Position numbers: made by a program
Shown here: piece by piece, positions 3,001 through 6,000 of the stretch
Numbering within the stretch: position 1 is the first letter of the stretch
How the letters are laid out: each line of letters opens with the position of its first letter
Assembly: GCF_044647545.1 (NCBI RefSeq)
Contig: NZ_CP172818.1
Source of the DNA: Escherichia coli
GTDB lineage: Bacteria; Pseudomonadota; Gammaproteobacteria; Enterobacterales; Enterobacteriaceae
Reading direction: 5' to 3' (one strand)
DNA length: 64,000 bases

Positions 3001-6000
3001 CTTACAGTTTTCAGGAAAATGGACCAGACCAGGGTGATCGTCTCTCTCCAGTCTCAGGGCGCTGTACCAGGCTCCTGTGATCATCCCTCTAAGGTTATCG
3101 TCCTGATCGTAATCCCCGAGGTGGTAGTAAGCGTCTTTGTTGAACAACAGGCAAATGTGATAGTGGCATTTACCTGATTCAGAATACTCTTTCGCCCATA
3201 TAATAAATAAAGGGCAACGGTAAATGCGTTTATCCTCACGCACCTTACGGGTACGGTCAGCCTCCAGCTTAGCTCTGAGGGATTCACGCATCCGGGATAT
3301 CACCCCAGGTTCCAGGTTAGGGAAGCAACAGATATTGTCACCGTTATCAACTATTTTGGGATAGTGGAGATCGACACGTACAGCAATTAACCTAGGATAC
3401 CGGTTAGTCAAATAACATAATAATTTATTAATCTTACTCTGATATTCGAGGATATGTACTCCATGAGTACCTTGATATGTTTTCATAATATATACCTGTA
3501 TTTGGTCCTACGGTCTATAGCAGACCGTACAGGGATGCCATACAGGCAGGGCTATTCCTGGTCACTGTTGTCGGTATATACTGGTATCAGATTTTAGTAC
3601 GGACATACTGATCTGATTACTACTCTTACTGGTGAATACAGGTAGTAAGAGTACACAATGCCATTATATAATACCTATCCAACATCTAAATTTGAGACGA
3701 AGGTAGCCCCAGCCTGTGATGGCTGTTAAAAAGTTACTCTGCAATTAGCTTCTGGAATTAACCGATGATTCCGTTATTCCAGTGCCGCTTCACAGTCGAT
3801 AAACTGATACTCAATTTCTTTGCAATCTCAGCCTGAGTAAATCCACCTTTCTTAAGTATTGTGATATCACGTCGGTATTTGCTTCCCTCCTTTCGTCCTA
3901 ATTTTTTCTTAACATGTCGATATCGGCTTTTAGTTGATTTCAGATTGTGAATGTCAATCGTATCCTGACGAGCAATCAAAAAAGACAAGCAACTTTCAGC
4001 AGAAGGCTCTATCCTTGAAGCTGGATGGTAGCTGTAGATAAACATTTCTTTTTGAAGGCAAAAAAATAAAATATTCTGTAAGTCCTCCACAGTTCTGCCA
4101 AGACAGCTTAGATCTGGAATGACAAGCGTGTCCTGCCGGTTCATTTCATGATGAATCAATTGTCTGAGTAAACGTTGCTCTGAAACAACCTCTTTAATAT
4201 CTACCTGCTCGATCACAACATGTTCAGGTAGAATATTAAATTTTTGGCATATCTCAGCAAGTGAGTGATGATCTGTAATGCTTTCTTGCTGTTCGCTACT
4301 GCATATGGTGTAAAAAAATGAACGCATCTGATGCACTCCGGTGTCATAAATTATTTTTTGATACCTGAATAATGTCATTTTGCATAAAAAACAACCAAAA
4401 ATAGAGAGTGATTGCCAGCGATACTTTAACTGGTAAAGTAGTATTTTACCTCTCATAATTGTTTGTCCTTCTTTGTTACCTCTTAGGTTCTGCTCTCTTG
4501 TGAGTATGGGTTTATAATGATGTCATCCGGTACATTAACACGGTTGGAAACATCTGTTTTGCGGAGCACTGGCAGCATAACCACCATTTCATTGACATGG
4601 TAAATATCAATCCAACAAACAACCGGATAAGGCATAACAATCCCCTTTCTTCTAAGAACTTCATTTATCCCGAATATAATCAATTGGGATGTTGACAAGA
4701 GTAGAGCCTGCCCGGCATCAAAGTAATAACCCTCAAAGGTTGTTCTATGAATAAGAATAATGTTTGAATATCCTGAGACACTTTGATGCTTTACATCAAA
4801 ATGTCTTTGATTGTAAATGTAAATGGCTTTTTCCATATCGTAATTTTCCCTTAGCGAGGATAGCCTTTCACGTATAACTGTTTTTTCATCTTTCCCCATG
4901 AATTCATCATTAGCGTTCAGTTGAAAGTAATCTGCAATGGGGATTTTTAATGGACTCATGATGTTCGTTTTCCAGATTAACGAACAGTACTCTTCCAGAG
5001 TTACTTCTGTTTTACCTCGGCTTCGATTGATGCTTTCTTTTATAGAGAACTTTAACAGGTCATTTTTTATTTCATTTATTGACCAGTTATGACGATTGCA
5101 TTTTTCTAATATAGGGATAGCCAAATCCACAACTTCCGCTATTACGGAAGAGTGAGATTTATTTGTTAGTCTGGCATAATGATCAATTACTCCTAATGAA
5201 GATTGATTTTTGAACGTGACTGAGTGTTTTTTTATGGGAGTAGTCTGTACTACCTGTGACTCATTGTTTTTGCCTTGACAAGGTTTTTTTCCTGGTAGAA
5301 CGCTGCTCATCTCAAAATTAGTAACACTATTAGACATTTTTAAGGAAACCTCTTTGTTATCTCAATATAAAACTACTATCTGAAATTTCTCAGTGTTGCC
5401 CCATTTTTCTCGGGGCAACATCGCTATAAATCAATAAAATTAAATCTGTAATTTATTACAGACTTTCTCGTACAGAAAATGTATCTATAAAATCGAGGAC
5501 ATCTTTACGTAACCAGTAATGGCGGCCATTGATTTGTTTTGGGCGAGGTAGCCCCTCAGGCAATTTGTCCTGACAAAGCCATTTACGAATGGTTTGAGAT
5601 TTGTAGCTAATGATTTTAGCTAACTCAGCTGTTGAAATGAGCTGTGATTGAGATGTATCCGGGAGTTTGAATGCGCTCATTTTGCCACCTCAGTGATTGA
5701 GATATTGGCAAAGAAAGCTTTAAGCATTATTGAATTAGTAGGGGTAGTAATGAAGGCAGAAGGAAACGTTTCGGGCTCGGGGTCGGGGTCACTACCATCA
5801 CCTGAATCTGATGATAAGGCACTTTTAGCTGATTTAGCCGTACTGTGATGCGATCTGGATGCCTGATTTTTACATGACATCAGACGCGCGAGAAAGTTAG
5901 TAGCATTTTGCATTCTTTGTTTAAGATGTAAAATTTTCAGTTTGGCGCATGCGACAGACTTGCGAAGAGCTGAGTATGTTCCTTTGAGATACTCGACAAC

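What the first reader, a model, noticed from the sequence alone, without database searches (positions are those of the whole stretch)
5456..5680. Probable overlooked AlpA-family regulator translationally coupled to yagN
A 74-codon ORF with an excisionase/AlpA-like HTH has a strong Shine-Dalgarno (GAGGTGG) and its ATG overlaps the yagN stop codon (ATGA), a classic translational-coupling arrangement. Its position (integrase, one gene, alpA-like) mirrors my recollection of the intA-yfjH-alpA layout of the related CP4-57 element, where AlpA activates integrase expression and excision. I do not recall an annotated gene at this position in K-12.
Basis: partly seen in the sequence, partly recalled or inferred. 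Interest (0 to 1): 0.5.

Follow-up and report, generated by a model that had tools for sequence, protein, structure and literature searches.

The report
ykgV: known excisionase-like gene of CP4-6
The 74-codon reading frame is real, but it is the already catalogued E. coli K-12 gene ykgV, a small excisionase-type DNA-binding protein that probably helps the CP4-6 island cut itself out of the chromosome, a role nobody has tested.

Summary
Window 5456-5680 (minus strand) is a 74-codon ORF. Its ATG overlaps the yagN TGA (ATGA), and a GAGGTGG Shine-Dalgarno lies 4 nt upstream.

It is not overlooked. It is ykgV (b4729), found in 2018 by chromosomal epitope tagging and immunoblot, with its HTH_17 match noted then. 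RefSeq annotates it in all K-12 records. Newer annotations already call the same protein "AlpA family transcriptional regulator".

It matches Pfam HTH_17, not Phage_AlpA. Its link to AlpA is remote: 94.7% by profile-profile comparison, nothing by BLASTP. The predicted winged-helix fold is closest to solved excisionases (RdfS, GIsul2 Xis).

The int, yagN-like, ykgV-like order is conserved across Enterobacterales, including the 4-nt overlap. ykgV is under purifying selection. In relatives, YkgV-like genes sit where alpA sits in CP4-57, upstream of DUF3987 and YagK/YfjJ genes.

GTTGAT-type repeats spaced 10 bp apart lie in both att arms and upstream of yagN-ykgV. CP4-6 is reported to excise at about 1e-5 per cell, and no excisionase has been assigned.

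Best reading: YkgV is the recombination directionality factor and/or regulator of the IntF module. This is untested. The gene is already known, so interest is low.

The parts
5456..5680 (-). ykgV (b4729) coding sequence, 74 aa, excisionase-type winged helix-turn-helix protein
5685..5691 (-). Shine-Dalgarno GAGGTGG for ykgV, inside the last codons of yagN (..E V A K stop)
   Evidence: Sequence. Conserved as GAGGTGG or GAGGTGA in Serratia, Pantoea and distant relatives, and as GAGTTGG in Pectobacterium.
5677..6117 (-). yagN, 146 aa, no known domain. Its stop overlaps the ykgV start (ATGA at 5680-5677).
   Evidence: No Pfam, NCBIfam, PHROG, PADLOC or PDB relatives. YagN-like ORFs precede ykgV-like genes with the same 4-nt overlap in all loci examined except L039, where no upstream gene overlaps the start. 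It evolves fast, with dN/dS 0.25-0.56.
6217..6247 (-). Conserved repeats GTTGAT-N4-GTTGAT plus an inverted ATCAAC, at the intF stop and upstream of a promoter-like TTGAC/TTGAT box before yagN
   Evidence: Alignment of int-yagN spacers. Pattern TTGAYN5TTGAY found here. Non-coding in Serratia and Pectobacterium yet conserved. Also present in distant relatives L036, L038 and L040.
6234..7559 (-). intF, a P4-type tyrosine integrase. The start at 7559 is inferred from homologues; RefSeq starts it at 7634.
   Evidence: PHROG 1 integrase, 1.9e-40. Homologues of 432-441 aa carry Arm-DNA-bind_3 and Phage_integrase domains. Their ATG aligns with 7559.
7597..7617 (-). 21-bp module TTACTTACACCAGCAGTTACA in the int-proximal att arm; candidate arm-type site
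   Evidence: The same module lies 54-60 nt from the 3' end of the full tRNA at the other island end in K-12 (L012) and in many genera.
7633..7657 (-). Three pentamers spaced 10 bp apart (TTGAT, TTAAC, TTGAT) upstream of the module; candidate YkgV or Int binding sites
   Evidence: Other genera have three or four TTGAY at the same 10-bp period with variable spacers.
7744..7803 (+). att core: an exact copy of the last 49 nt of tRNA-Thr thrW plus 11 nt downstream (the ptwF fragment)
   Evidence: Exact-match search against thrW taken from a K-12 record. ARAGORN finds no complete tRNA here.
5395..5419 (-). GC-rich hairpin (8-bp stem) in the ykgV-yagM spacer; possible end of the int-yagN-ykgV transcription unit
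   Evidence: RNA folding, z -3.0. A strong hairpin of different sequence sits at the same place in Serratia, Pectobacterium and Pantoea, z -3.0 to -5.9. No U-tract, so a terminator function is only inferred.
2860..5337 (-). Remainder of the conserved island backbone: yagM (4483-5337), yagL (3758-4456), yagK (2860-3486)
   Evidence: yagM-like (PF27701) and YagK_YfjJ_C genes follow ykgV in other genera. YagK is 44% identical to CP4-57 YfjJ.

Best explanation
The ORF is ykgV, a translated gene for a small MerR/excisionase-type winged-helix DNA-binding protein. It belongs to the recombination module (intF, yagN, ykgV) of a family of islands that integrate at tRNA-Thr or tRNA-Arg, of which CP4-6 is the K-12 example. 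Most likely YkgV is the island's recombination directionality factor and, like many such proteins, also a local transcription regulator. It is probably made by reinitiation of ribosomes finishing yagN. I infer that it binds head-to-tail to the GTTGAT-type repeats spaced 10 bp apart in both att arms, where it would bend DNA and favour IntF-mediated excision. I also infer that it binds the same repeats in front of yagN-ykgV and so controls its own expression. Shown here or in the literature: the gene, its translation, its fold class, its conserved context and overlap, purifying selection, the repeat architecture, and the fact that CP4-6 excises. Inferred: DNA binding to these repeats, the effect on excision or on int transcription, and true translational coupling.
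Against: No experiment links YkgV to excision or to intF expression. It fails Pfam Phage_AlpA and scores below the curated cutoff of TIGR01764 'excise' (12.5 vs 28.8 bits). The same fold is used by plain transcription factors (BldC, MerR) and by small terminase subunits. The repeats could instead be arm-type sites for the N-terminal domain of IntF. In the K-12 window alone the repeat pattern is not enriched (2 matches against 0.79 expected); its weight comes only from conservation of position. Consensus promoter and terminator scans are at background level.
Confidence: 0.6

Rival explanations
1. YkgV is purely a transcription factor of the AlpA type, an activator or antiterminator, with no architectural role at att. 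It would switch on intF and/or the downstream backbone genes (yagM, yagL, yagK), so any effect on excision would be indirect, through Int levels.
For: Remote homology to AlpA. E. coli AlpA is described as a regulator of intA (PMC5811629). Repeats lie directly upstream of a promoter-like box before yagN-ykgV. A hairpin after ykgV in four genera could be a regulated terminator before yagM. The best sequence-profile hit is BldC, a transcription regulator.
Against: The same repeats also sit in the tRNA-proximal arm, far from any promoter for island genes. That fits an architectural role better. The top structural neighbours are proteins shown to act as excisionases. Many directionality factors do both jobs, so this rival overlaps the main explanation.
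Confidence: 0.22
2. YkgV has a role unrelated to recombination. It could be a repressor or partner of the island's replication or cargo functions, or a small-terminase-like or packaging-redirecting DNA-binding protein of a phage satellite.
Against: These hits are much weaker than the excisionase hits. The gene is always glued to the integrase end of the island, while the cargo varies. No capsid or packaging genes were seen in the loci.
Confidence: 0.1
3. In K-12 the gene is a decaying remnant with no current function; the ORF merely survives in a cryptic element.
For: CP4-6 is a rearranged, IS-ridden cryptic element. The middle repeat in the K-12 int arm is degenerate (TTAAC), and the inverted copy of the 21-bp module is lost. 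The region is AT-rich, 33-43% GC.
Against: The ORF is intact and the protein is detected. The K-12 sequence shows purifying selection against other genera. Both att arms are intact, and CP4-6 still excises.
Confidence: 0.08

Closest known systems
AlpA of CP4-57 (E. coli K-12) and the Pfam Phage_AlpA family, including P4 Vis and the GIsul2 excisionase (PDB 8c3t)
   Different: No PF05930 match and no pairwise similarity to K-12 AlpA. The signature is QTIRKW...LPRP..INGR..W rather than the AlpA one (STIY..., FP.P...G...W). It is translationally overlapped with an upstream yagN-like gene on the same strand as int, whereas alpA stands alone after the oppositely oriented yfjH.
RdfS, the recombination directionality factor of ICEMlSymR7A (PDB 8dgl)
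   Different: 14-16% sequence identity. RdfS belongs to a different element type (a conjugative ICE) with a different integrase family context. RdfS function is demonstrated; YkgV function is not.
Lambda Xis, TorI and BldC: small MerR-like winged-helix proteins that bind direct repeats head-to-tail
   Same: Same fold class. TorI is the best single-sequence PDB hit, though weak (E 0.38). Three or four pentamer repeats at a 10-bp period next to att recall the Xis X1-X1.5-X2 microfilament and BldC binding to direct repeats (from my own knowledge; not tested here).
   Different: Sequence similarity is marginal. Here the repeats lie in both arms and at a promoter. No binding data exist for YkgV.

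Membership tests
Pfam Phage_AlpA (PF05930) / AlpA family | Significant match to the PF05930 profile | tested here: not met
   The hmmscan of YkgV lists HTH_17 only. In the 47-member extended family, 2 match PF05930 and 34 match HTH_17. All 95 AlpA homologues carry PF05930.
Pfam Phage_AlpA (PF05930) / AlpA family | Detectable homology to bona fide AlpA proteins | tested here: inconclusive
   BLASTP against K-12 AlpA gives E 8.3. hhalign of the two family alignments gives probability 94.7%, E 5.7e-8 over 68 columns. This makes it a remote relative within the same superfamily, not a family member by sequence. RefSeq nevertheless labels WP_001272156.1 'AlpA family transcriptional regulator' in newer records.
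Pfam Phage_AlpA (PF05930) / AlpA family | Over-production raises integrase expression and excision of the element | not testable with these tools
   This needs genetics. No paper in the searchable library reports it for ykgV.
HTH_17 (PF12728) / excisionase-type DNA-binding domain | Match to PF12728 | tested here: met
   E 3.5e-6 over residues 15-66. 34 of 47 relatives also match. VanOrsdel et al. 2018 noted the same match.
HTH_17 (PF12728) / excisionase-type DNA-binding domain | NCBIfam TIGR01764 'excise' domain above the curated cutoff | tested here: not met
   12.5 bits against a cutoff of 28.8, E 0.14.
MerR-like winged-helix excisionase fold | beta-alpha-alpha-beta-beta-alpha winged helix that superposes on solved excisionases | tested here: met
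Recombination directionality factors (functional class) | Encoded beside the cognate integrase in an element that excises | tested here: met
   The int, yagN, ykgV order is conserved. CP4-6 excision was measured by qPCR in two papers.
Recombination directionality factors (functional class) | Specific binding sites in an att arm | tested here: inconclusive
   TTGAY repeats spaced 10 bp apart are conserved in both arms and at the yagN promoter region. Whether YkgV or IntF binds them cannot be decided from sequence.
Recombination directionality factors (functional class) | Stimulates excision and inhibits integration by the cognate integrase | not testable with these tools
   Requires in vivo or in vitro recombination assays.
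Translationally coupled gene pair | Stop/start overlap, with the SD inside the upstream ORF, conserved in evolution | tested here: met
   ATGA and GAGGTG(G) in K-12 and in nine loci from three other genera. Also present in relatives at 41-45% identity.
Translationally coupled gene pair | Translation of the downstream gene depends on translation of the upstream gene | not testable with these tools
   Needs a premature stop in yagN combined with a ykgV reporter.

The most novel reading that the evidence does not exclude
YkgV is the directionality factor of a so far undescribed, widespread family of defence-cargo islands in Enterobacterales and some other Gammaproteobacteria. The backbone is int, yagN-like, ykgV-like, then yagM or DUF3987, then yagK. 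In this reading YkgV forms Xis-like head-to-tail filaments on GTTGAT repeats spaced 10 bp apart in both att arms and on its own promoter. The fast-evolving partner YagN, which has a hydrophobic tail and is translationally coupled to YkgV, sets how much YkgV is made and so gates excision.
Probability: 0.3. Interest if true: 0.4.

Novelty: already known. Interest (0 to 1): 0.2.

Why it matters
The finding matters little as a discovery. The gene, its translation, its HTH_17 domain and even the AlpA-family label are already public. What remains open is function: ykgV is still listed among the uncharacterised K-12 genes (PMC11551758), and CP4-6 excises without any assigned excisionase. This analysis adds a concrete, cheap hypothesis to test. 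It names YkgV as the directionality factor or regulator of IntF and gives defined candidate operator and arm sites. It also shows that the module is the conserved mobility core of a family of islands that carry variable anti-phage cargo.

Tried and rejected
(1) AF2 with the shallow 28-sequence alignment gave pLDDT 55 and was discarded. A 47-sequence alignment from the exhaustive search was needed.

(2) The single-sequence PDB search gave only a marginal TorI hit (E 0.38).

(3) NCBIfam gave nothing above cutoff for YkgV, YagN or YagM.

(4) YagN has no relatives in Pfam, PHROG, PADLOC, NCBIfam or PDB, so its role stays unknown. YagM in K-12 gave no Pfam hit with the installed library, although its homologues carry PF27701 in the precomputed tables.

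(5) ARAGORN finds no tRNA next to int, because only a 3' fragment is present there. The full tRNA is at the other island end.

(6) Consensus promoter and terminator scans around the locus are at background level and were not used as evidence.

(7) In the K-12 window alone the pattern TTGAYN5TTGAY is not statistically enriched (2 matches against 0.79 expected). Only its conservation of position across genera carries weight.

(8) I considered that the thrW-proximal copy of the 21-bp module is a relic of a tandem island. I rejected this because the module lies at a similar distance (54-60 nt) from the full tRNA in ten loci from nine genera and at two different tRNA targets.

(9) No supplementary files were held for the 2018 paper, so growth-phase details for YkgV could not be read.

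Full report
**1. What is there**

The window is E. coli K-12. A 901-nt query around the finding is 100% identical to MG1655 and other K-12 records.

On the minus strand, 5456-5680 is a 74-codon ORF. Read on that strand, the junction is ...ACT GAG GTG GCA AAA TGA GCG... The last codons of yagN (T E V A K stop) contain GAGGTGG at 5691-5685. The yagN TGA (5679-5677) shares TG with the ATG of the ORF (5680-5678).

**2. It is not overlooked**

RefSeq annotates the ORF as ykgV in every K-12 record listed. VanOrsdel et al. 2018 (PMC6001520) reported ykgV at NC_000913.3 294918-295142 with exactly this 74-aa sequence. They detected the chromosomally SPA-tagged protein by immunoblot in LB cultures and noted the HTH_17 match. 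Its b-number is b4729 (PMC9976479).

It is still counted among the uncharacterised CP4-6 genes (PMC11551758). Only seven papers in the library contain the string, and none of the three E. coli papers among them tests a function. Newer PGAP annotations give the same protein accession, WP_001272156.1, the product name "AlpA family transcriptional regulator".

**3. Is it a real gene?**

Yes. Besides the published protein detection, homologues at 60-97% identity occur in Salmonella, Citrobacter, Enterobacter, Erwinia, Pantoea, Serratia and Pectobacterium.

Against Pantoea and Pectobacterium, dN/dS is 0.11-0.22 for ykgV. The figure is 0.25-0.56 for yagN and 0.06-0.09 for int. Several comparisons are saturated at synonymous sites.

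The ATGA overlap and the SD are conserved in nine loci from three other genera. They are also kept in relatives only 41-45% identical. YagN-like proteins all end in ..E-V-x-K, and those codons are the SD plus the overlap.

**4. What kind of protein?**

- Pfam: HTH_17 at 3.5e-6, with no Phage_AlpA hit.
- NCBIfam: TIGR01764 'excise' scores only 12.5 bits against a cutoff of 28.8.
- PHROGs: family 66, 'excisionase and transcriptional regulator', at 1.4e-6.
- An exhaustive profile search of 1.84 billion representatives found only 69 relatives at E <= 1e-3, so the family is small.
- In a 47-member alignment, 34 members match HTH_17 and 2 match Phage_AlpA.
- BLASTP against K-12 AlpA finds nothing.
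- Profile-profile comparison with an AlpA alignment gives 94.7% probability, E 5.7e-8 over 68 columns.
- The family profile hits solved structures of BldC (1.3e-6), the CarA N-domain, RdfS (2e-3) and the GIsul2 AlpA-family excisionase (7.5e-3).
- With the deeper alignment, AlphaFold gives a confident winged helix: pLDDT 82.5, order b-a-a-b-b-a.

YkgV is therefore an excisionase/MerR-type winged-helix protein. It is remotely related to AlpA but is not a sequence member of that family.

**5. Context**

In Serratia, Pectobacterium and Pantoea, ykgV always follows a 433-441 aa integrase (Arm-DNA-bind_3 plus Phage_integrase) and a yagN-like ORF. A yagM-like gene (PF27701) and a YagK_YfjJ_C gene follow it. 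After those comes variable cargo that looks like defence systems: SLFN/AlbA with an SMC-like ATPase and a restriction endonuclease, type I R-M, and a trypsin-AAA protein.

Relatives at 41-45% identity show int, a yagN-like ORF (with overlap), the YkgV-like gene, then DUF3987 and YagK_YfjJ_C. One more distant member (L039, 32% identity, on a 2.5-kb contig) shows no integrase and no such overlap.

In CP4-57 the order is ssrA, intA(+), yfjH(-), alpA(+), yfjI, yfjJ. YfjI is DUF3987 (1e-107), and YfjJ is 44% identical to YagK. YkgV-like genes therefore occupy the alpA position of a shared backbone. yfjH is on the other strand, and IntF and IntA are only 23% identical.

Genuine AlpA genes occur in separate P4-like elements that lie head-to-head with the island in two loci.

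**6. att anatomy (beyond the finding)**

*The core.* The last 49 nt of thrW, plus 11 nt downstream, are repeated exactly at 7744-7803 next to intF. In other genera the int-proximal fragment derives from tRNA-Arg(UCU).

*A 21-bp module in both arms.* The module TTACTTACACCAGCNGTTACA lies about 38 nt before the int ATG (7597-7617 in K-12). It occurs again, in the same orientation, 54-60 nt from the 3' end of the complete tRNA at the other end of the island. This holds in K-12 and Kluyvera (tRNA-Thr) and in Serratia grimesii, Winslowiella, Erwinia, Brenneria, Citrobacter, Enterobacter, Lelliottia and Buttiauxella (tRNA-Arg). Pairs on the same contig lie 21-27 kb apart.

*Repeats spaced 10 bp apart.* In both arms the module is preceded by TTGAY pentamers at a 10-bp period. 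There are usually three at the int arm (four in one distant relative, L036) and two at the tRNA arm. The pentamers are fixed while the spacers vary.

*A third set of repeats.* GTTGAT-N4-GTTGAT plus an inverted ATCAAC lies right after the int stop, upstream of a TTGAC-type box before yagN. It is non-coding in Serratia and Pectobacterium. It is kept even in the distant relatives.

*Specificity.* In 16-kb loci these are almost the only matches to TTGAYN5TTGAY, and all are in the gene orientation.

**7. Mechanism**

CP4-6 excises at 1-27 per 1e5 cells, about 5-fold more in biofilm (PMC3105296; PMC4632033). No excisionase is assigned to it in the literature I could search.

The most economical reading is that YkgV is the directionality factor or regulator for IntF. 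I propose that it binds the repeats as a head-to-tail array. This is by analogy with lambda Xis, BldC and RdfS. That analogy rests on my own knowledge and was not tested here. The 21-bp module would then be the Int arm-type site. The reverse assignment cannot be excluded.

Strong hairpins of unrelated sequence follow ykgV in four genera. They suggest that the int-yagN-ykgV unit ends there.

None of the functional steps is shown.

**8. Verdict**

The feature is already known, and only its function is open. Interest is low as a discovery and modest as a testable hypothesis.

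Noticed in passing
window 7559-7637 (minus strand): The intF start is probably annotated too far upstream. RefSeq starts it at 7634, and the first in-frame start is a TTG at 7637. Homologous integrases start at the Met equivalent to 7559 (MALSRQKFTFERL...). The extra 25-26 codons cover the conserved 21-bp module and one of the repeats.
   Followed up: partly
window 7597-7617 and L012:2559-2579 (thrW-proximal arm); L014/L015, L019/L020, L024/L025, L034/L035: A 21-bp module, TTACTTACACCAGCNGTTACA, lies in both arms of the att site. 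It is conserved across many Enterobacterales and across two tRNA targets (Thr-CGU, Arg-UCU). Module pairs on the same contig lie 21-27 kb apart. The module also occurs about 60 nt from a tRNA-like 3' end in a Candidatus Thiosymbion MAG (L016-L018).
   Followed up: partly
window 5395-5419; L002:8246-8270; L006:8269-8300; L007:8241-8272: Each genus has a strong hairpin in the ykgV-yagM spacer, with unrelated sequences (z -3.0 to -5.9). None is followed by a clear U-tract. They could be terminators, attenuators or RNA-stabilising elements.
   Followed up: partly
window 5677-6117 (yagN); L036:4627-5004; L038:1649-2023; L040:441-899: YagN-like proteins evolve fast but keep three features: a K-N-x-x-S-R-x-H motif, a Ser-rich stretch ending in an acidic SDP(D) motif, and, in the distant relatives (L036, L038, L040), a long hydrophobic C-terminal tail. 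No database relatives were found. In L036 the gene had not been called.
   Followed up: partly
L002-L010 downstream of the yagK-like gene; L043:10546-12662: The cargo after the conserved backbone differs between hosts and looks like anti-phage defence: SLFN/AlbA with an SMC-like ATPase and a restriction endonuclease, type I R-M, a 1939-aa trypsin/AAA protein, and a TrlF-family ATPase in an E. coli clinical isolate.
   Followed up: no
L003:1-5727 and L006:1-5706: A separate P4-like element (int, one gene, a true PF05930 AlpA, then a primase with Zn-ribbon/Toprim/DUF927 domains) sits head-to-head with the island's integrase, about 400 bp away. This suggests tandem occupation of the same tRNA-Arg site.
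   Followed up: no
L013, L014, L020, L024, L026, L029, L030, L033, L034 (110 nt upstream of the tRNA-proximal module): In the tRNA-Arg islands a conserved coding sequence (...KMNDI..KHYPGMLA...stop) ends immediately before the tRNA-proximal repeats. It is a conserved last gene of the island that I did not identify.
   Followed up: no
window 3758-4456 (yagL): yagL is annotated as a recombinase-family protein and matches DNA invertase PHROG 125 at 4e-8. In an E. coli clinical isolate the allele is frameshifted and named an ECF-type sigma factor. In Pantoea a 184-aa protein with a faint Sigma70_r4_2 hit occupies the same position.
   Followed up: no
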